Positions 32,074-38,483 are shown, numbered from the stretch's first letter. The stretch: DNA of 64,000 bases from Rhizobiaceae bacterium (GCA_023953845.1 JAMLJC010000002.1:55421-119420); one strand, 5' to 3'. Notes: a model not told the origin generated them from the sequence alone. Numbers and translations: made by a program.

Positions 32074-32495
32074 ACGAACGCGGCATCGTCACCTACGCCG
32101 GCGTCATTCACCCCTGGATGTGCGATGCGATGGGGCATCTGAATGTCCGACACTACGTGGCGATGTTCGACGACGCCAGCTTCCAGCTTCTCGGTCGCAT
32201 CGCCGGCCAGGGGGATGCTGACAACGGGCTCGGATGGGCCGATGTGCGCATGGAGATTGAGTACAAGCATGAGACCTCCGCCGGCACTTTGATCACGGTC
32301 TACAGCCATGTCGAAAAGGTTGGCGTGTCGTCACTTACGTATCTGCACGAGATGTACGGCACGCTCGACGGCGTTCTCCACGCGCAGATGCGCACGGTTA
32401 CGGTGCGGTTCGACTTGCGGCAGCGCAGCAAGATCGAACTCGATCCGGCAATCAAACGGAGGGCGATTGATCTTCTGGCAGACGGGCACAAGTGA
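32070..32495 (+). CDS. hotdog-fold acyl-CoA thioesterase (4HBT-like)
   Basis: Only the last ~141 codons of ORF 31083-32495 look real (NERGIVTYAGVIHPWMCDAMGHLNVRHYVAMFDDA...). The likely start is TTG 32070, overlapping the BKACE stop (TTGA). Confidence 0.7.
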   Translation: MNERGIVTYAGVIHPWMCDAMGHLNVRHYVAMFDDASFQLLGRIAGQGDADNGLGWADVRMEIEYKHETSAGTLITVYSHVEKVGVSSLTYLHEMYGTLDGVLHAQMRTVTVRFDLRQRSKIELDPAIKRRAIDLLADGHK

Positions 32496-32653
32496 TCGTC
32501 ACTGGCGTAACGTCTCTCGTGACAACCCGCGCAGCGCCTGATCACGGGACATTCGTCACAGGCCCTGCGCCCAGCGCATTCCGGCATACGGCTTGGCGTC
32601 GTGGACTTCCGCCACGGCAACCGGTATCCTGTCTGTTCGCCTGGAGAGGCACC

Positions 32654-34597
32654 ATGGAGCGCCGTCTCGCAGCCATTCTTTTCGCCGACGTGGTCGGTTA
32701 CAGCCGGCTCATGGAGGCAAGCGAAGCCGCGACGCTGGCGGCAATAAGAACACGCCACAAGGAAATCGTGGTCCCAGTGGTCGCCGGCCACAAGGGGCGG
32801 ATTGTCAAGCTGATGGGCGATGGGATGCTGCTGGAGTTTCCCAGCTCCGTCAGCGCGGTTGAGTGCGCCATTGAACTACAGGTCGCGATGGCCAAGGCGA
32901 ACAAAGGAGTGGCGCCCGATCGGCAGGTGCTCTACCGCATGGGCATAAACATGGGTGACGTCATCGTCCAGGACGATGATCTTTATGGCGACGGCGTCAA
33001 CATCGCCGCGCGTCTGGAAAACCAGGCCGACCCCGGCGGCATTGTGATCTCCGATACGGTGTACGGGCAGGTCCGCAGCAGGGACGAGTTCCGTTTCAGC
33101 GACCTGGGGGAGCGTACGTTGAAGAACATCGCCCGGCCGCTGCGAGTCTACAGCGTATCGGGGGCGCGGTCGGCAGGTGCGACGGACGACGCTACGGCCA
33201 TTTCGAAGCCCGGCATTCCGATTGTCGTGCTGCCATTTGCCAATGTCAGCGGAGATCCGGAGCAGGAATATTTCAGCGACGGCATAACCGATGACATCAT
33301 CACAGACCTGTCGAAGATATCGGCCCTCAACGTGCTCTCGCGCAGCACCGCCTTCACCTTCAAGGGCGGCGCGATCAACATCAACCGGATCGCGAAGGAC
33401 CTCAAGGTCTCCTATGTCGTCGAAGGCACCGTGCGCAAATCCGGCGGCCGCGTGCGCATCGGCGCGCAGCTTATCGACGCGGTGCGCGACACCCATATCT
33501 GGGCGGAACGTTACGATCGCGAATTCAGCGACGTGTTCGCGCTCCAGGACGAGTTGTCCCGTGCGATCGTGTCAGCGCTGAAGGTCCGCCTTCTGCCGCA
33601 GGAGCGGCAGGCGATCGAGACACGTTCGACTTATGACAGCGAGGCGTATCGGCTCTATCTGATGGGCCGTCAGTATTTCGAACTGCGCGGCGCGCGGAAT
33701 TATGAGATCGCATTGCGGTTCTGCCGCCGGGCGCTTCAGGCCGATCCCGACTATGCCCGCGCCTGGGCGCTGTCGGCGCTCTGCCTGTCCTATCTGAGCT
33801 TCAGCGGACAGACCTCGGATTCCGGCTTCGAAGCGGCGCGAAAGGCGTTGACCCTCGATCCGACGCTTGCCGAGGCGCATTCCGCCATGGGGCGCATTCT
33901 CGCCGAGCAGGGGCGGTTCGAGGAGGCGCTCGTCGCGCACCGGGAATCGCTGCGCCTCGACGCCAATTCCTTCGATGTGCACCAGAACCTCGGAACGACC
34001 TGCATCGAGTTCGGATTGCTCGATGAGACGATCTGGCATCTCGACCTGGCGTCGCGGTTGTCGGAGACGGACTACACCGCACTCAATCTGATGGCGCTGG
34101 CGCTGCGTTCGGCCGGCAGGCATGAAGAGTTCGTCACTACGACCTATCGCGCGCTCGAGCGTATAGAGAAATCCGTGCTGAAACATCCAGACAATACGAA
34201 CTCACTGGCGCATGGGGCGCTTGCACTCGCGCGTGTCGGCGAAAAGGAACGCGCCAGCGAATGGATCGACCGGGCGATGATCATCGAGTCGAACGACACC
34301 ACAGATCAATATAATATGGCCTGCGCATTGGCGCAGATCGGCGACTTCGACGCTGCAATGGATCTGCTCGAAGCATGTGTCCCGAAAATGCCAGCGGAGT
34401 TCGTGCTTTGGTTACCCAAGGATTTCGATCTCGCGCCGATCCGCGATCATCCCCGCTATGCGCAGCTTGTTTCAGATTGCGAGGCGCGATTGGTCCACTG
34501 CTCAATGGAATCGGATCCCCAGCGAACGAAGACGCGTTCGCGGGCAGCGGTCGACCCGATCGGCATCGACAGCGTGAAGGTGGAGCGTGCCGGATAA
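32654..34597 (+). CDS. class III adenylate/guanylate cyclase with TolB-N-like and TPR domains
   Basis: Start reassigned to ATG 32654 (MERRLAAILFADVVGYSRLMEASE...KLMGDGMLLEFPS..., cyclase homology domain). C-terminal TPR-like repeats. Confidence 0.85.
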   Translation: MERRLAAILFADVVGYSRLMEASEAATLAAIRTRHKEIVVPVVAGHKGRIVKLMGDGMLLEFPSSVSAVECAIELQVAMAKANKGVAPDRQVLYRMGINMGDVIVQDDDLYGDGVNIAARLENQADPGGIVISDTVYGQVRSRDEFRFSDLGERTLKNIARPLRVYSVSGARSAGATDDATAISKPGIPIVVLPFANVSGDPEQEYFSDGITDDIITDLSKISALNVLSRSTAFTFKGGAININRIAKDLKVSYVVEGTVRKSGGRVRIGAQLIDAVRDTHIWAERYDREFSDVFALQDELSRAIVSALKVRLLPQERQAIETRSTYDSEAYRLYLMGRQYFELRGARNYEIALRFCRRALQADPDYARAWALSALCLSYLSFSGQTSDSGFEAARKALTLDPTLAEAHSAMGRILAEQGRFEEALVAHRESLRLDANSFDVHQNLGTTCIEFGLLDETIWHLDLASRLSETDYTALNLMALALRSAGRHEEFVTTTYRALERIEKSVLKHPDNTNSLAHGALALARVGEKERASEWIDRAMIIESNDTTDQYNMACALAQIGDFDAAMDLLEACVPKMPAEFVLWLPKDFDLAPIRDHPRYAQLVSDCEARLVHCSMESDPQRTKTRSRAAVDPIGIDSVKVERAG

Positions 34598-34623
34598 TTG
34601 GCTCGTATGGACAGAGATAGTCC

Positions 34624-35367
34624 TCAACCAAAGTCACGTACGATCGGACTCTCCATCGCGTTTCGGAAGTCGACGAAGAAGCCGGTTTCCTCCAGCGTGA
34701 AGGCCGCTGCTGACGAGGTCGATCCGGTTTCAAGCGCATGCTTCACGCGGGCCAGCAATTCCACGCCGTCCAGCATCTTTTGGTTTACCCGGTTTCGCAA
34801 GATCCGCTCGCGGCTTTCGGCGCTGACGGCACCAGCCGAACGGGCATTGTAGGCATCGATGACGCGGCCCAGATCGCGGCGCGCGTAGAACGTCGCGGCA
34901 GCGATGCCGGCGATCCGGGTAGCGGTTTCGTCGCTGATCAGCGAGCATGCGACCGCGTTGGCCAGCGTATAGCGGATGTTCACCAGCGCTTCCGACAGAT
35001 GGGGGAAATCCAGTTCGGCGGGGCCGTGTTCGATAGCAACCTCGTCATCACGCGTCAGCCGCCCTGTGGCGAAGTCACGGAAGATCGCGCCGATGCCGAT
35101 CATGCCGAATGAGTGCAACTCGGCGGCGCGCAGCGCGCCCATGCTTGCCGCGCCGTATACCGCGCAGCCGCGCGTCATCGCCCACAATATTTCCTTGTGC
35201 AGGACCGAGGGCACGGTCTTGAAGCAACCGTCGACCAGACCGATCAGCCGCGTGCCTGCCAAAGCGGCGCGGTAGATATCGCCGCGCCGGGCCGGCGGAC
35301 GCCAGTCGAACGCCTCATCACGCGGTATCGATCGCAATGTCGGACCGGCAAAGATCACTGGTTTCAT
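34624..35367 (-). CDS. tfuA: TfuA-like protein
   Basis: MKPVIFAGPTL...PPARRGDIYRAALAGTRLIGLVDGCFKTVPSVLHKEILWAMTRGCAVYGAASMGALRAAELHSFGMIGIG...DDEVAIEHGPAE. ATG 35367 overlaps the YcaO stop (ATGA); an alternative ATG is at 35373. Confidence 0.85.
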   Translation of the reverse strand: MKPVIFAGPTLRSIPRDEAFDWRPPARRGDIYRAALAGTRLIGLVDGCFKTVPSVLHKEILWAMTRGCAVYGAASMGALRAAELHSFGMIGIGAIFRDFATGRLTRDDEVAIEHGPAELDFPHLSEALVNIRYTLANAVACSLISDETATRIAGIAAATFYARRDLGRVIDAYNARSAGAVSAESRERILRNRVNQKMLDGVELLARVKHALETGSTSSAAAFTLEETGFFVDFRNAMESPIVRDFG

Positions 35368-36554
35368 CGCCATGCTCCGGCGGATTGCGCCCGCTTGCCT
35401 GGACTGTAGTGGCGAGCGTACGGGAAGGTCTCGAGGCCGGGCACGACGACCCTTGCGAAGGCCAGTTGTGGAGAACGGCTTTTCAGATCCACAGCGATTG
35501 CTTGAGCAAAGCCCGCCGCCGTCAGCCGGTCGAGCAGCCAGACGAGCATCTCCGCCGAAGACCTGCCGGCGCACGCGACTTCGACAAGTGGGACCTCGCT
35601 CGAGCCGAACGGCAATGGCGCGGTCGAGCAGTAATGGCGCGGGCGTAGATCGTCGCGAGCGCCCGAAATCAGCAGAGCACGGGTCTGTATCGCCTCAAAA
35701 AGCGCGCCTTTCAACGCGATGGCGGGAATTGGATGGCAACCTGCGCCATCCGTCGCGATGGCTATGTTCAGGGGACCGTTTCCGCGCTCGACCAGCCGAC
35801 AATAGAAGCAGGGAACCCCAATCTCCGTCGTGATGTCCCACGTGATGACGTCTACGCCGAAACTGAGGCAGTTGCTGCGAAAGATCAGCGCGTCCGCATC
35901 GTCTACGGTGCTCCAGTCGATTCGCGCAAAGCGATCCTTTTGCGACGCATGGAACACCGCGACCGCATCGCCCTCGATGACCTCGCACAATCCATGCAGC
36001 ACCGCTTCGGTCATGTCGGCGCCGCCGCCGAGGCCATTGCTGGATATGACATAGCCGTCATTGCTCCGCTCCGTTTCGACGCGAAAATCAGTGTGAACGA
36101 GGCCAAAGGGCACGGCAGCCAGCGATCCGGAGATCAGTTCGCAGCCAACCGTCATCGCAAGCGAAGGCCAGGGCCTGGTCGGTCGCCGGGCATCGGCGGC
36201 ACGCGGCAATGCAGACAGATCCGGCACGATGCAGCCGCCGGGAAGATCGGAGAAAGGCACCCGATCGGAGAATATCTCGGCATGGAAAATCTCCAGGCCC
36301 TCCATCAATCCGGAGACCCGAGCTTCAGCCAGAGTTGCACCCTTACCGGATGCGATGCTGAGGGCGCGCGAGTTTGGGCGGATGACCGAGACCACGTTGA
36401 GCCCGATTTCGTCCAGCCCGCTGATGTCGGCCACCCGCGTGATGCCCGCCTGCCGCTCCAATGCGCGGCATGCCGCCAGCGTATCGTCGAGGGACGCAGC
36501 GGCCGATGCTCGTCGTGACGTAAAGACCGACGCGGCACTATCTCGGACGATCAT
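35364..36554 (-). CDS. YcaO-like family protein (TfuA-associated type)
   Basis: GITRVADISGLDEIGLNVVSVIRPNSRALSIASGKGATLAEARVSGLMEGLEIFHAE...SSNGLGGGADMTEAVLHGLCEVIEGDA. In-frame start candidates are ATG 36554, GTG 36575 and TTG 36578. The long ORF start at 36659 would overlap the upstream gene. Confidence 0.85.
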   Translation of the reverse strand: MIVRDSAASVFTSRRASAAASLDDTLAACRALERQAGITRVADISGLDEIGLNVVSVIRPNSRALSIASGKGATLAEARVSGLMEGLEIFHAEIFSDRVPFSDLPGGCIVPDLSALPRAADARRPTRPWPSLAMTVGCELISGSLAAVPFGLVHTDFRVETERSNDGYVISSNGLGGGADMTEAVLHGLCEVIEGDAVAVFHASQKDRFARIDWSTVDDADALIFRSNCLSFGVDVITWDITTEIGVPCFYCRLVERGNGPLNIAIATDGAGCHPIPAIALKGALFEAIQTRALLISGARDDLRPRHYCSTAPLPFGSSEVPLVEVACAGRSSAEMLVWLLDRLTAAGFAQAIAVDLKSRSPQLAFARVVVPGLETFPYARHYSPGKRAQSAGAWR

Positions 36555-36582
36555 CGCCGAAGCCGCCGCAATCACCAACCCG

Positions 36583-37287
36583 TCAGTTGCGGCCCATAAT
36601 GACCATGCCGCCGCCGATCTCGACCGGCTCATAGATGGACGCCGCCTTGTCCCCGCCAAAACGCAGTTGGACCGCTCCGGCCACGTTAATGACGTTACTC
36701 CGGACGGCGTTCAGCGCCTTGCTGATTTCCTGATCGACGAGGGCCCATCTTCGGTCATCGAGGTTACGGTCAAACCCCACCAGCGCAATTCCCGGAATTG
36801 CATAAAGCCGCTTGTCCCCCTTGCCGCCGGCGGCGATCGGCGTCATCTCGACCTGGACGAACAGCGCGCCGTTCAGAATCCACTTCTCATCGTCGGTGAG
36901 CTCTTCGCCAAAGAAGTAGTTGCGCAGCGCCGCGCGAAACCGCAACAAATCGTTATCAGAAGACGCGATCGCGTTGAGCTTGGCATTTGCCAGCGCGTCG
37001 GGTTCCACGGCGACGGGTTGGTAGTCCCGAACAAAATCGCTGAAAGCCTTGCAATCCTCCTGGAGGACGCCCCCGCTCACATTAGGTGCCTCGCCCGCTT
37101 TAAGTTTCTCCCTGGCCTTATCGCTGTTTTGGAAGAAGAACGTCATGTCCTTCAGAGAAGTTGGTTTGTTCTGGGTGATCCATCTCTGGTATCGAACGTA
37201 AAAGTCTTCGTTTCCTTCCTCTATCCAAACGCTGGCCTGTGGGTCAGCCGTATATATTGCGCAGAAATTGGGATCACCAGCAGACAT
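36583..37287 (-). CDS. hypothetical protein, 234 aa, no recognisable family; first gene of the YcaO-TfuA cassette
   Basis: Strong SD (GAGGGAGGG) just upstream of ATG 37287. Coding-like composition. No signal peptide, TM segment or cofactor motif recognised. C-terminus ...IYEPVEIGGGMVIMGRN. Confidence 0.7.
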   Translation of the reverse strand: MSAGDPNFCAIYTADPQASVWIEEGNEDFYVRYQRWITQNKPTSLKDMTFFFQNSDKAREKLKAGEAPNVSGGVLQEDCKAFSDFVRDYQPVAVEPDALANAKLNAIASSDNDLLRFRAALRNYFFGEELTDDEKWILNGALFVQVEMTPIAAGGKGDKRLYAIPGIALVGFDRNLDDRRWALVDQEISKALNAVRSNVINVAGAVQLRFGGDKAASIYEPVEIGGGMVIMGRN

Positions 37288-37359
37288 GCTAACCCTCCCT
37301 CGGAAACAATACTTGACTGTACTATTATCTTTTCCGTTCGAATTTGAATTGAATGCGCT

Positions 37360-37380
37360 TAACTGGTAATTGTAACTGGT
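37360..37380. promoter_or_regulatory. direct repeat TAACTGGT-N5-TAACTGGT in the AT-rich region upstream of the cassette
   Basis: Read directly (37360-37367 and 37373-37380). An adjacent GAATTTGAATTGAAT iteration lies at about 37340-37355. Confidence 0.3.
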
Positions 37381-37673
37381 TTTTTCGGAGTTGGAAAGGC
37401 TGTGCCGTTACCGGGGAGCAGGTCAGTCTGAAATTCGGAGGCGGGCATGGATATCGCCCGCCACTTTATCGCGGAGACACTGTGATGCCAGTCGCGCTCG
37501 TCAGTCGACTGATCATTACAATCGATCCTTCATATGAATTCATCGCCGCGTTTTGCAGGGACCGCGAACGATCGGCCTCCCGGCTTCCTTTACGTCGGGC
37601 AGCGCAACAATGTTTGCGATCTCGCGCCAGTGCATCCGGCGGGTCTATAGCGGGCTAGGCCCTCTCCGACGAC

Positions 37674-37820
37674 CTATTCAGGTCGGATGTTCTGGTTGAT
37701 CCTGAAGAGATTGGCAGGGTCGAACTTGCGCTTCAGCTCAACAAGGCGCGGATAGTTGTTGCCATAGGTGGCGCGCAGCCGCGCATCGCCTTCATCATCC
37801 ATCATGAAGTTCGGGTAACC
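37674..37820 (-). pseudogene. FAD-linked oxidase, BBE-domain C-terminal fragment
   Basis: ...GYPNFMMDDEGDARLRATYGNNYPRLVELKRKFDPANLFRINQNIRPE matches the berberine-bridge-enzyme C-terminal signature. The whole FAD-binding part is absent. Confidence 0.5.
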
Positions 37821-37838
37821 GCGCTGAGGAACGTCTCG

Positions 37839-38483
37839 ATGGAGGTGGCCCAACACGACGTCGTGGCCCTGCTCGGCTCCAACGGCGCGGGAAAGTCGAC
37901 GCTCCTGTCCGCTATAATGGGCGTTATGGAGGGTATCGTCGAAGGCTCTATCCTACTCGACGGCGTCGACATCACATCGCAGCCGAGCGAAAGGATCGTC
38001 GGCCTCGGCCTGGCGCTCGTTCCGGAAGGTCGCGATCTCTTCGGCGATCTCACTGTCGAGGAAAACTTGTCGATTGGTGCCTATCTCCGGCGAGACAAGG
38101 CGGCCATCGCGGCAGATCTCGAGGACGTTTTCGCGCTGTTTCCGCGGCTGATGGAGCGGCGCAAGCAGGTGTCAGCGACGCTGTCGGGTGGAGAGCAGCA
38201 GATGGTGGCGATCGGCCGGGCGCTGATGTCACGGCCCCGGATTCTGCTGCTCGACGAGCCGTGCCTCGGCTTGGCGCCGATCTTCGTGATCGAAATCATG
38301 CGCTACATCAAGCGCATCAACGAGAAGGGCACGACGATCTTACTGATCGAGCAGAACGTTCGTCAGGCCCTGTCCGTCGTATCCAGAGCATATGTCCTGG
38401 AGAAAGGGACGATACGCATATCCGGAACTGCCGAAGAACTCAGGAGTCATGGGGACGTATCTTCTGCATATCTGGGATCGTAG
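37839..38483 (+). pseudogene. LivF-type branched-chain amino acid ABC ATPase, 5'-truncated (possibly still expressed from internal ATG)
   Basis: Begins inside the region just before Walker A (..VSMEVAQHDVVALLGSNGAGKST). About 20 N-terminal residues and the upstream livH/M/G-type genes are missing. Confidence 0.7.

What the first reader, a model, noticed from the sequence alone, without database searches (positions are those of the whole stretch)
34624..37287. Orphan YcaO-TfuA thioamidation-type cassette led by an unrecognisable 234-aa ORF
Seen in the sequence: three co-directional minus-strand genes are packed as one unit. The 234-aa ORF stops at 36583. YcaO start candidates lie at 36578 (TTG), 36575 (GTG) and 36554 (ATG). 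The YcaO stop overlaps the TfuA ATG (ATGA at 35364-35367). The YcaO product carries the family core (...RPNSRALSIASGKGATLAEARVSGLMEGLEIFHAE...). The TfuA product carries GDIYRA...GLVDGCF...HKEILWAM...GAASMGALRAAEL. Established knowledge: YcaO plus TfuA pairs carry out ATP-dependent backbone thioamidation. Known examples are thioglycine in methyl-CoM reductase McrA and the thioviridamide/thiovarsolin-type RiPPs. TfuA was first named from Rhizobium trifolitoxin production. Not present here: no E1-like/Ocin-ThiF partner, no SagB-type dehydrogenase, no short Cys/Ser/Thr-rich precursor of the known kinds, and no peptidase, exporter or immunity gene. Inference: the cassette either thioamidates a protein-sized substrate encoded by its own first gene, or uses that protein as a new accessory factor. 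Neither arrangement is described for bacteria as far as I know. The AT-rich promoter region and the adjacent rearrangement scar suggest the unit is horizontally mobile.
Basis: partly seen in the sequence, partly recalled or inferred. Interest (0 to 1): 0.85.

Follow-up and report, generated by a model that had tools for sequence, protein, structure and literature searches.

The report
Thioamidation cassette with protein substrate and cyclase

Summary
Three packed minus-strand genes encode a 234-aa protein (36583-37287), a YcaO (35364-~36554; PF02624, E 3e-53) and a TfuA (34624-35367; PF07812, E 3e-44), with every stated coordinate and motif correct.

The cassette is not a three-gene orphan. 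A convergent class III adenylate cyclase-TPR gene (32654-34597, +) is a fourth conserved member. Conservation with related loci covers exactly 32608-37294, and the flanks are unrelated.

The 234-aa protein belongs to a very small family: about 30 clusters among 1.84 billion representative proteins. It has no Pfam, NCBIfam or PDB relative by sequence or fold.

Every family member with readable flanks lies next to YcaO/TfuA. All but one also lie next to a cyclase-domain signalling protein; in that one the partner is cut to its TPR part by the contig end. This holds across five gene orders and two cyclase architectures. No conserved short precursor exists.

AlphaFold gives a confident fold (pLDDT 85). 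The extreme C-terminal tail (…GxG-MVIM-G-RN) is among the most conserved parts yet predicted flexible. It loosely recalls the McrA thioglycine site (LGFFG*F).

Best reading: the protein is the YcaO/TfuA substrate and is thioamidated in its tail, with the cyclase-TPR as cognate sensor or regulator. This rests on genomic evidence only. Verdict: new variant of a known kind.

The parts
36583..37287 (-). 234-aa protein of an uncharacterised family; the proposed substrate of YcaO/TfuA. Strong Shine-Dalgarno sequence (GAGGGAGGG) ends 7 nt before the ATG.
   Evidence: ORF. No Pfam, NCBIfam or PADLOC hit. About 30 clusters in 1.84e9 representative proteins. AlphaFold pLDDT 84.8, pTM 0.71. No fold match in PDB or BFVD. 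No PDB sequence match with the family profile.
36586..36660 (-). Codons for residues 210-234, the C-terminal tail FGGDKAASIYEPVEIGGGMVIMGRN. G227 and G232 are invariant, and the protein always ends 2-3 residues after G232. This is the proposed thioamidation site.
   Evidence: Conservation is 0.60-0.64 in the last 14 residues against a protein mean of 0.48, while pLDDT is 47-64. Tails of all 28 family members are listed. The McrA site LGFFG*F is taken from PMC5589413.
36655..36696 (-). Codons for residues 198-211 (NVINVAGAVQLRFG), the most conserved block of the family. N201 and R209 are invariant and Q207 is nearly so.
35364..36554 (-). YcaO (396 aa from ATG 36554; alternative starts at 36575 and 36578). 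It has the ATP-dependent backbone-activating domain, and its stop overlaps the TfuA start.
   Evidence: PF02624 E 2.8e-53. Best NCBIfam hit is TIGR03266, the McrA-glycine thioamidation YcaO, at 150.6 bits, below the equivalog cut-off of 365. Best solved relative is M. jannaschii MJ1094 (6PEU/6PE3), E 1.7e-17, aligned over residues 36-381, with the GKGA...ME.xE and ExIExDA motifs matched.
34624..35367 (-). TfuA (247 aa), the partner of thioamide-forming YcaOs.
   Evidence: PF07812 E 3.1e-44. NF033432 ThioGly_TfuA_rel scores 178 bits, below the cut-off of 235. In L011 the orthologous pair is one fused 675-aa YcaO-TfuA protein.
32654..34597 (+). Class III adenylate cyclase domain, TolB_N-like linker and TPR array. 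It is convergent with TfuA, with 26 nt between the two stop codons. The mechanical ORF starts at GTG 32492, but homology starts at ATG 32654. This is the conserved fourth member of the unit.
   Evidence: PF00211 57.2 bits plus many TPR families. Orthologues at 58-74% identity are adjacent to the 234-aa family in L001-L005 and L012. All six canonical class III residues are present: two metal Asp, adenine-specifying Lys and Asp, and transition-state Asn and Arg.
37288..37673 (-). AT-richer upstream non-coding region with one sigma-70-like site (37397-37369). Not conserved in related loci.
   Evidence: GC 0.51-0.52. The promoter-like site count is no higher than in shuffles. No shared palindrome or Crp-type box in 14 upstream regions. 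No Rfam match.
37677..38483 (.). Boundary scar outside the unit: a BBE-domain C-terminal remnant (37677-37856, -) overlapping an N-truncated ABC ATPase (37839-38483, +).

Best explanation
The window carries a four-gene functional unit that is inherited together: a 234-aa protein, YcaO, TfuA, and a convergent adenylate cyclase-TPR protein.

Proposed mechanism:
- YcaO uses ATP to activate a backbone amide. TfuA supplies sulfide equivalents, from a ThiS-type thiocarboxylate encoded elsewhere. Together they convert a peptide bond into a thioamide. This step is inferred from family membership.
- The substrate is the co-encoded 234-aa protein. It is a folded, cytoplasmic protein of a new family. Its strictly C-terminal, highly conserved but flexible tail (G-x-G-hydrophobic x4-G-x-x-COOH) is the most likely entry point into the YcaO active site, probably at or next to an invariant glycine as in McrA thioglycine. 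This step is inferred from context, conservation and the model.
- No protease or exporter is conserved in the unit, so the product probably stays a protein inside the cell.
- The cyclase-TPR protein is the unit's signalling partner. Either it controls the unit through cAMP, or its TPR array reads the tail of the 234-aa protein and converts that into cAMP output. This step is speculative.
For: Shown by tool results:
- YcaO and TfuA calls are secure. The nearest solved and curated relatives are the methanogen McrA-glycine thioamidation pair.
- The 234-aa family is tiny and always about 225-250 aa.
- Every member with readable flanks lies beside YcaO and TfuA. Apart from L008, whose partner is cut to its TPR part by the contig end, each also lies beside a cyclase-domain signalling protein. 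Five gene orders occur:
  - ORF-YcaO-TfuA facing cyclase-TPR (window, L001-L005);
  - ORF facing a (weak-cyclase)-TPR-YcaO-TfuA operon (L007; in L008 the TPR protein is cut by the contig end, so its N-terminus is unseen);
  - cyclase-TPR then ORF, facing a fused YcaO-TfuA (L011);
  - ORF then cyclase-TPR in one operon (L012);
  - ORF-YcaO-TfuA facing a zinc-ribbon-cyclase-AAA_16 STAND protein (L016, L017).
- Conservation stops exactly at the four genes (32608-37294) and the flanks differ in every locus.
- Divergence of the 234-aa protein tracks that of YcaO (r 0.96), TfuA (0.88) and the cyclase (0.90).
- There is no room for, and no conservation of, a short precursor.
- In sister alphaproteobacterial clusters, the slot just upstream of YcaO holds a short peptide (47 aa in R. 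leguminosarum, 65 aa in Azospirillum) or another long ORF (258 aa in Skermanella).
- The tail is among the most conserved parts but has low pLDDT.
- The invariant residues are aromatic, Gly, Pro, Asn and Arg, not a catalytic-looking set.
- The McrA site is LGFFG*F (PMC5589413).
- YcaO thioamidation of whole proteins has precedent in McrA and uL16 (PMC13063428).
Against: - No chemistry was or could be tested here.
- Adjacency does not tell a substrate from an accessory factor.
- In three arrangements the ORF is not co-transcribed with YcaO, and in L012 it is co-transcribed with the cyclase, so it is linked as tightly to the cyclase as to YcaO.
- The resemblance of the tail to the McrA site is only a Gly-hydrophobic-Gly pattern.
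- The family profile shows no detectable similarity to the short peptides of sister clusters (best E 1.1).
- No ThiS-type sulfur carrier or cNMP receptor is detectable in the 64-kb window.
- In distant members the cyclase domain lacks canonical substrate-specifying or transition-state residues. A cAMP output is therefore secure only for the window's own subfamily.
Confidence: 0.5

Rival explanations
1. The 234-aa protein is an accessory or adaptor factor, not the substrate. It would recruit YcaO/TfuA to another target, most plausibly the neighbouring cyclase protein or an unlinked cellular protein. Alternatively it would relay sulfur through its paired cysteines C9 and C79.
For: The ORF is linked to the cyclase as tightly as to YcaO: it is co-transcribed with the cyclase in L012 and convergent to YcaO-TfuA in L007, L008 and L011. 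C9 and C79 covary perfectly, suggesting a functional pair. Sister clusters with a homologous cyclase-TPR (Paracoccus kondratievae) have no 234-aa homologue and no annotated short peptide. E. coli YcaO acts on an unlinked protein (PMC13063428).
Against: The only element shared by all cyclase partners is a generic class III domain with no special conserved segment. C9 and C79 are absent in 3 of 28 members. TfuA already accounts for sulfur delivery. The conserved, flexible, strictly C-terminal tail is what a substrate segment would look like. No catalytic-type invariant residues are present.
Confidence: 0.2
2. The 234-aa protein is a RiPP precursor with an unusually large folded leader. After thioamidation, the C-terminal ~25 residues would be cut off, for example after the invariant Arg209 of QLR|FG, by a protease encoded elsewhere. 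The released small thioamidated peptide would act as a signal or antibiotic, possibly sensed by the TPR cyclase.
For: It sits in the precursor slot of sister clusters. It has a strong Shine-Dalgarno sequence. It is the fastest-evolving of the four proteins, yet has a conserved C-terminal 'core'. Invariant R209 lies just before the tail. The Skermanella sister cluster carries a clostripain-like (Arg-specific) peptidase, and L008 carries an ABC-exporter-like gene. TfuA-related clusters with long Nif11-type leaders are reported (PMC8120280).
Against: No protease or exporter is conserved with the family; the conserved block holds only four genes. The N-terminal 210 residues are well conserved and confidently folded, far beyond what leaders usually show. 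There is no NHLP or Nif11 similarity.
Confidence: 0.15
3. The YcaO here carries out chemistry other than thioamidation (azoline, amidine or something new), or TfuA has another role.
For: Both enzymes score below the curated equivalog cut-offs of the McrA thioamidation pair: 150.6 against 365 bits, and 178 against 235 bits. TfuA was first linked to trifolitoxin, which is not known to carry a thioamide (background knowledge).
Against: All characterised adjacent YcaO-TfuA pairs make thioamides (PMC8120280, PMC5589413, PMC13063428). The conserved tail has no conserved Cys, Ser or Thr for azoline formation. No dehydrogenase or E1-like partner is in the block.
Confidence: 0.07
4. The linkage to the cyclase-TPR gene is inherited synteny without function. 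Cyclase genes are very numerous in Rhizobiales, and the real unit would then be three genes.
For: Rhizobial genomes carry many cyclase-TPR paralogues (background knowledge). An unrelated SAM-domain cyclase fragment also sits next to the unit in L001.
Against: The linkage survives five gene orders, two cyclase architectures, and divergence of the 234-aa protein to 27% and of the cyclase partner to about 30% identity, in both Rhizobiales and a Roseobacter, with unrelated flanks. In the close group the cyclase is the most conserved of the four proteins (58-74% identity against 41-61% for the 234-aa protein). Homologous X-TolB_N-TPR proteins, with a cyclase or a BTAD output domain, also accompany sister YcaO-TfuA clusters that carry other precursors.
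Confidence: 0.05

Closest known systems
Methanogen YcaO-TfuA pair that installs thioglycine in McrA (M. acetivorans MA0165/MA0164; M. jannaschii MJ1094, PDB 6PEU)
   Same: It has an adjacent ycaO-tfuA pair and is the best curated (TIGR03266, NF033432) and best solved-structure match. Its substrate is a whole protein. The modified residue is a Gly flanked by hydrophobic residues (LGFFG*F, PMC5589413).
   Different: Scores are below the equivalog cut-offs. The organism is bacterial (Alphaproteobacteria), not an archaeal methanogen. The proposed substrate is an unrelated 234-aa protein encoded next to the enzymes, with the site at the extreme C-terminus. A cyclase-TPR partner is present.
E. coli YcaO thioamidation of ribosomal protein uL16 (PMC13063428)
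   Same: It is a bacterial YcaO acting on a folded protein rather than a short peptide. It shows that protein substrates of YcaO exist in Pseudomonadota.
   Different: No TfuA is involved, the substrate is unlinked and universal, and EcYcaO has its own TPR-like dimerisation domain. NF040716 (YcaO_for_S12) matches the window protein only at E 0.024.
TfuA-related thioamidated RiPP clusters (thioviridamide/thioamitides, thiovarsolins; the proteobacterial clusters catalogued in PMC8120280)
   Same: They share the YcaO-TfuA core. Rhizobium and its relatives are the richest source of such clusters. The putative substrate gene lies directly upstream of ycaO.
   Different: There is no short leader-core peptide, and no conserved tailoring enzyme, protease, exporter or immunity gene. 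The candidate substrate is a conserved, folded 234-aa protein.
Sister alphaproteobacterial YcaO-TfuA clusters with an X-TolB_N-like-TPR protein (R. leguminosarum CP050516, Paracoccus kondratievae NZ_CP045074, Skermanella sp. TT6 NZ_CP067421, Azospirillum lipoferum 4B NC_016587)
   Same: YcaO is 33-39% and TfuA 38-52% identical to the window proteins. They carry a homologous TPR signalling protein, in Paracoccus and Skermanella with a cyclase domain. Crp/Fnr regulators are often adjacent.
   Different: The output domain can be BTAD instead of cyclase. The slot upstream of YcaO holds a 47-aa or 65-aa peptide, or a 258-aa internally repeated protein. None of these resembles the 234-aa family.
Pycsar anti-phage cyclases (PycC)
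   Same: The cyclase domain gives weak hits to PycC models (best E 3.9e-11).
   Different: This is generic class III cyclase similarity only. There is no Pycsar effector. The adenine-specifying Lys and Asp are present, and the other three proteins have no PADLOC hit.

Membership tests
YcaO superfamily (PF02624) | Full-length YcaO domain above the Pfam gathering score | tested here: met
   181.8 bits against a cut-off of 25.7, profile 1-325/325.
YcaO superfamily (PF02624) | ATP/Mg-binding motifs (S-G-K-G...E-x-x-E and E-x-x-E-x-D) | tested here: met
   SGKGATLAEARVSGLMEGLE and LCEVIEGDA align to the matching motifs of MJ1094. Which residues are catalytic comes from background knowledge.
TfuA (PF07812) | TfuA domain above the gathering score, with the gene adjacent to and overlapping ycaO | tested here: met
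   150 bits against a cut-off of 30. ATGA overlap at 35364-35367.
McrA-glycine thioamidation pair (TIGR03266 / NF033432 equivalogs) | Score above the curated equivalog cut-offs | tested here: not met
   150.6 against 365 bits and 178.2 against 235.2 bits. It is related to this pair but is not an equivalog.
Thioamide-forming YcaO/TfuA system (functional class) | O-to-S replacement demonstrated on a substrate | not testable with these tools
   This needs mass spectrometry after co-expression.
TfuA-type thioamidated RiPP gene cluster | Short precursor peptide (leader plus core) encoded in the cluster | tested here: not met
   No conserved short ORF was found. Conservation is limited to the four genes, and gaps within the block are at most about 30 nt.
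TfuA-type thioamidated RiPP gene cluster | Leader protease, exporter or immunity gene, or further tailoring enzymes | tested here: not met
   None is in the conserved block. Such genes appear only sporadically in distant or sister loci.
NHLP / Nif11 long-leader precursors | Similarity to NHLP or Nif11 leader domains | tested here: not met
   No Pfam or NCBIfam hit at E<=1 for the window protein, and no consistent hit among the 28 members.
Class III nucleotidyl cyclase (PF00211) | Cyclase domain above the gathering score and six canonical catalytic residues | tested here: met
   57.2 bits against a cut-off of 21.9. D, D, K, D, N and R are present in the window, L001 and L012. They are only partly present in L007, L011, L013, L016 and L017.
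ThiS/MoaD-type sulfur carrier (considered for the 234-aa protein) | Beta-grasp fold ending in Gly-Gly-COOH | tested here: not met
   No beta-grasp or any other fold match. The window subfamily ends ...MGRN rather than GG.
Pycsar defence system | PycC cyclase plus an effector with a cNMP-binding domain and a killing domain | tested here: not met
   Only weak generic PycC hits, and no effector model hit.

The most novel reading that the evidence does not exclude
The unit is a post-translationally gated second-messenger switch. YcaO/TfuA would thioamidate the free C-terminal tail of the 234-aa protein, and the TPR array of the partner cyclase would read that tail in its thioamide or amide state, much as TPR 'carboxylate clamps' read C-terminal peptides. 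Sulfur or ATP status would thereby be converted into cAMP output. This would be the first regulatory, rather than structural or antibiotic, role for a backbone thioamide, and the first dedicated, co-encoded protein substrate of a bacterial YcaO-TfuA pair.
Probability: 0.15. Interest if true: 0.9.

Novelty: new variant of a known kind. Interest (0 to 1): 0.66.

Why it matters
Backbone thioamides in proteins are known from only two cases, McrA and uL16. The authors of the uL16 study state that further protein substrates of YcaO remain undiscovered.

This unit offers a directly testable third case, with three practical advantages:
- The candidate substrate is encoded beside its enzymes.
- It is small enough for intact-mass analysis.
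- It has a short, conserved tail that narrows the search for the modified site.

The invariable linkage to a cyclic-nucleotide cyclase and sensor protein suggests that thioamidation may feed into, or be controlled by, cAMP signalling in rhizobia and roseobacters. No such connection turned up in the literature searched here. The result also defines a new protein family with no fold relative in the two libraries searched (PDB and BFVD).

Tried and rejected
1. Short hidden precursor. tblastx of window 24-46 kb against five related loci shows conservation only over the four genes, and the gaps are too small for another ORF. Rejected.

2. Relation of the 234-aa family to the short peptides or long ORFs of sister clusters. 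By eye there seemed to be a shared 'G-x-D-G-x-LY' hairpin and an 'LRF' motif. A family-profile search of 1357 stop-to-stop segments from six sister loci gave a best E of 1.1. Not supported.

3. Known domain or fold. All of the following were negative: Pfam and NCBIfam on the window protein, Pfam on all 28 members, PADLOC, a family-profile search of PDB sequences, and Foldseek against PDB and BFVD. The top Foldseek rows (USP deubiquitinases) have TM below 0.2 and are noise.

4. ThiS-like sulfur carrier idea for the C-terminus. Rejected: no beta-grasp fold, and GG is not conserved.

5. Anti-phage system (Pycsar or STAND). Only generic cyclase similarity.

6. Shared operator or Crp/Clr box upstream of the ORF in 14 loci. 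None found.

7. RNA elements. No Rfam match in 31.5-38.5 kb.

8. Mobile-element boundaries. No flanking direct or inverted repeats of note, no nearby tRNA, and no IS in the window near the block.

9. Crp, cNMP-binding or ThiS genes in the window by tblastn. None.

10. Plasmid collection. The 234-aa protein has no match.

11. Technical failures. The first AlphaFold run, with five sequences, was poor (pLDDT 55), and only the 28-sequence alignment gave a usable model. Two alignment-based locus scans failed for lack of a conserved stretch, and one metagenome scan found nothing.


Full report
**1. Observation**

The three minus-strand genes exist exactly as described.
- The ORF listing gives the 234-aa ORF at 36583-37287, a YcaO-frame ORF ending at 35364, and a TfuA-frame ORF ending at 34624.
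- Reading the sequence confirms TTG 36578, GTG 36575 and ATG 36554 as YcaO start candidates.
- It also confirms the ATGA overlap at 35364-35367 and a strong Shine-Dalgarno sequence (GAGGGAGGG) before the ATG at 37287.
- Pfam confirms YcaO (PF02624, E 2.8e-53, whole profile) and TfuA (PF07812, E 3.1e-44).
- NCBIfam ranks the methanogen McrA-glycine thioamidation models first for both enzymes, but below their equivalog cut-offs.
- The closest solved structure is M. jannaschii MJ1094, aligned over almost the full length with the nucleotide-binding motifs matched.
- The 234-aa product has no Pfam, NCBIfam or PADLOC hit.
- The upstream region is AT-richer.
- The right flank is a true junction: a 60-aa remnant carrying only a BBE C-terminal domain overlaps an N-truncated ABC ATPase.

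**2. The 234-aa protein is a real member of a very small family**

- A word-indexed search of 5.8 billion proteins found five relatives.
- An exhaustive profile search of 1.84 billion cluster representatives found 30, of which 21 score below E 1e-30. Apart from three short entries (77-205 aa) and one of 281 aa, all are 224-253 aa long.
- Named sources are a Rhizobiaceae MAG (identical, so presumably the source of this window), Mesorhizobium sp. IMUNJ 23033, M. robiniae, M. wenxiniae and an uncultured Roseobacter. All are annotated 'hypothetical protein'.
- In the 28-sequence alignment the invariant residues are M1, Y12, Y33, W36, F52, G140, P165, A191, N201, R209, G227 and G232. No catalytic-looking set stands out.
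- The most conserved block is 201-210 (N-V-A-G-A-V-Q-L-R-F).
- The second most conserved is the extreme C-terminus, [VI]-[GA]-x-G-hydrophobic(4)-G-x-x-COOH. The protein always ends 2-3 residues after G232.
- AlphaFold with this alignment gives pLDDT 84.8 and pTM 0.71. The helical N-terminal ~90 residues score above 92 and the alpha/beta part (110-210) about 85-90. The last ~25 residues score only 47-64. The tail is therefore conserved but not packed, as expected for a segment that binds a partner.
- Foldseek finds nothing in PDB or BFVD (best E 0.37 and 0.056, TM below 0.2).
- A profile search of PDB sequences finds nothing.
- No Pfam family recurs among the 28 members.

**3. The unit has four genes, not three**

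- tblastn and tblastx against loci that carry homologues (L001-L005) show conservation over window 32608-37294 only.
- That block comprises the 234-aa gene, ycaO, tfuA and the convergent gene at 32654-34597 (+).
- The fourth gene encodes a class III cyclase domain (PF00211, 57 bits), a TolB_N-like linker and a TPR array. Its stop lies 26 nt from the tfuA stop.
- In the close group (L001-L005, L012) it is the best conserved of the four proteins: 58-74% identity against 41-61% for the 234-aa protein.
- Flanking genes differ in every locus.

More distant family members (27-41% identity) keep the same partners in different gene orders:

| Locus | Arrangement |
|---|---|
| L007 | ORF convergent with an operon TPR (weak cyclase hit)-YcaO-TfuA; an ISL3 transposase and an integrase are next door |
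| L008 | ABC-exporter-like gene, a 153-aa cNMP-binding protein, the ORF, then TfuA-YcaO-TPR on the other strand (the TPR protein is cut by the contig end) |
| L011 (Roseobacter) | Cyclase-TPR, the ORF, and a fused 675-aa YcaO-TfuA |
| L012 | ORF followed on the same strand by cyclase-TPR |
| L016, L017 | ORF-YcaO-TfuA facing a ~1000-aa zinc-ribbon-cyclase-AAA_16 (STAND) protein |

- Identity of the 234-aa protein to the window copy correlates with that of YcaO (r 0.96), TfuA (0.88) and the cyclase (0.90). The four genes therefore travel together. The caveat is that these are distances to one reference.
- The YcaO search shows a distinct clade of about 17 clusters at 45% identity or more, then a plateau of hundreds at 36-41%. 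That clade size matches the closer half of the 234-aa family.

**4. Wider context**

The nearest YcaOs in the plasmid collection (33-39% identity) sit in clusters built on the same plan.

| Organism | Cluster layout |
|---|---|
| Paracoccus kondratievae | Full-length homologue of the cyclase-TPR protein, YcaO, a long TfuA, and a Crp/Fnr regulator |
| Skermanella sp. TT6 | Cyclase-TPR homologue, a 258-aa internally repeated ORF directly upstream of YcaO, TfuA, and a clostripain-like peptidase |
| Azospirillum lipoferum | Cyclase-AAA_16 protein, a 65-aa ORF, YcaO, TfuA, and Crp/Fnr |
| Rhizobium leguminosarum | Homologous TPR protein carrying a BTAD (SARP-type activator) domain instead of the cyclase, then a 47-aa ORF, YcaO and TfuA |

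- The TPR module thus appears with interchangeable output domains (cyclase or DNA-binding activator), which is typical of a sensor or regulator.
- The slot upstream of ycaO is where candidate substrates are encoded. In the window's family that slot holds the 234-aa protein.
- The family profile shows no similarity to the peptides of the sister clusters.

**5. Mechanism**

- Shown: the enzyme families, the conserved four-gene unit, the absence of any short precursor, protease or exporter in the unit, and the conserved flexible tail.
- Inferred from established knowledge: adjacent YcaO-TfuA pairs make backbone thioamides. YcaO activates the amide with ATP, and TfuA delivers sulfide equivalents from a ThiS-type thiocarboxylate (PMC5589413, PMC8120280, PMC13063428).
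- Inferred here: the 234-aa protein is the substrate and its tail is the site. The McrA site is LGFFG*F, and the family tail is G-[MF]-[VT]-I-[MF]-G. This is a loose resemblance only.
- In the window's subfamily the cyclase has all six canonical class III residues with adenylate specificity, so cAMP synthesis is plausible.
- In distant members these residues are partly missing. There the domain may have another specificity or only a structural role.
- Whether the cyclase-TPR regulates the unit or reads the tail is open. The strict C-terminal position of the motif makes TPR recognition of a free C-terminus an attractive idea, but it is untested.

**6. Comparison with what is known**

- The enzymes belong to YcaO and TfuA, but they are not equivalogs of the McrA pair.
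- The unit is not a conventional thioamidated RiPP cluster, because it has no short precursor and no processing or export genes.
- Protein-level thioamidation in bacteria is now known for uL16, by a TfuA-less YcaO acting on an unlinked substrate (PMC13063428).
- Full-text searches for TfuA or YcaO together with tetratricopeptide, cyclase, adenylate cyclase or Rhizobi* found no paper describing this association or this protein family. The survey of proteobacterial TfuA clusters does not mention cyclases.

**7. Mobility**

- Support is indirect: unrelated flanks, presence in only a few Mesorhizobium species, a gene-remnant junction at the right edge, and IS or integrase genes near relatives.
- The window has no IS, integrase, tRNA or bounding repeats at the block.

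**8. Verdict**

- This is a new variant of a known kind: a YcaO-TfuA unit with a novel, dedicated, protein-sized candidate substrate and a conserved cyclic-nucleotide signalling partner.
- Everything beyond family membership and linkage is inference and needs mass spectrometry.

Noticed in passing
window 36583-37287 (residues C9 and C79 of the 234-aa protein): The two cysteines covary perfectly across the family: both are Cys in 25 of 28 members and both are non-Cys in the other 3. This suggests a disulfide, a metal site or a sulfur-relay pair in a protein with no signal peptide.
   Followed up: partly
window 37677-38483: A 60-aa remnant holding only the C-terminal BBE domain of an FAD-linked oxidase (-) overlaps an ABC ATPase (+) that lacks its first ~25 residues. 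This is a junction left by a past insertion or deletion, right next to the unit.
   Followed up: partly
window 32492-32653: The mechanical ORF of the cyclase-TPR gene starts at GTG 32492, but homology to all orthologues starts at the ATG at 32654 (MERRLAAILFADV...). The first 54 codons are probably not translated.
   Followed up: partly
L001 5467-5949 (Mesorhizobium sp. IMUNJ 23033): Directly upstream of the 235-aa homologue lies a 160-aa ORF with a SAM domain and only the first strand of a cyclase domain. It appears to be a truncated second cyclase gene next to the unit.
   Followed up: no
L018 4082-4858 and 6891-8033 (Skermanella sp. TT6 plasmid pTT6-1): A sister YcaO-TfuA-cyclase-TPR cluster has a 258-aa ORF made of two similar halves (GLLVRDGNGYLYFVPDE...CPVIWGICNALRG / GLLVRGEDGTLSFIPDT...CPPVWKIRNALRG) in the slot upstream of ycaO. 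It also has a clostripain-like peptidase downstream. This may be a two-core long precursor.
   Followed up: partly
L015 2665-4861 (R. leguminosarum bv. trifolii RCAM1365 plasmid p_2): In the common Rhizobium YcaO-TfuA cluster the TPR partner carries a BTAD activator domain instead of a cyclase. A 47-aa ORF containing 'LRF' twice precedes ycaO, and TfuA is annotated 'toxin'.
   Followed up: partly
L016 12817-13395 and L017 12866-13450: Both loci with the STAND-type cyclase partner also carry a GNAT acetyltransferase just beyond it. This may be a further conserved member in that subgroup.
   Followed up: no
L008 2521-2982; L002 130-813; L013 7493-8173; L014 6970-7680: Cyclic-nucleotide-binding or Crp/Fnr proteins recur near these YcaO-TfuA units. 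None is detectable in the 64-kb window.
   Followed up: partly
P0039, P0042 and other YcaO homologues: Orthologous YcaOs in Mesorhizobium and in metagenomes are annotated 'ribosomal protein S12 methylthiotransferase accessory factor'. This is probably an over-transfer from E. coli YcaO: the window protein matches that NCBIfam model only at E 0.024.
   Followed up: no
one search hit list: Beyond the ~17 close clusters, the next several hundred YcaO relatives (36-41% identity) come largely from myxobacteria (Archangium, Myxococcus, Sorangium, Pyxidicoccus). Their gene contexts were not examined.
   Followed up: no
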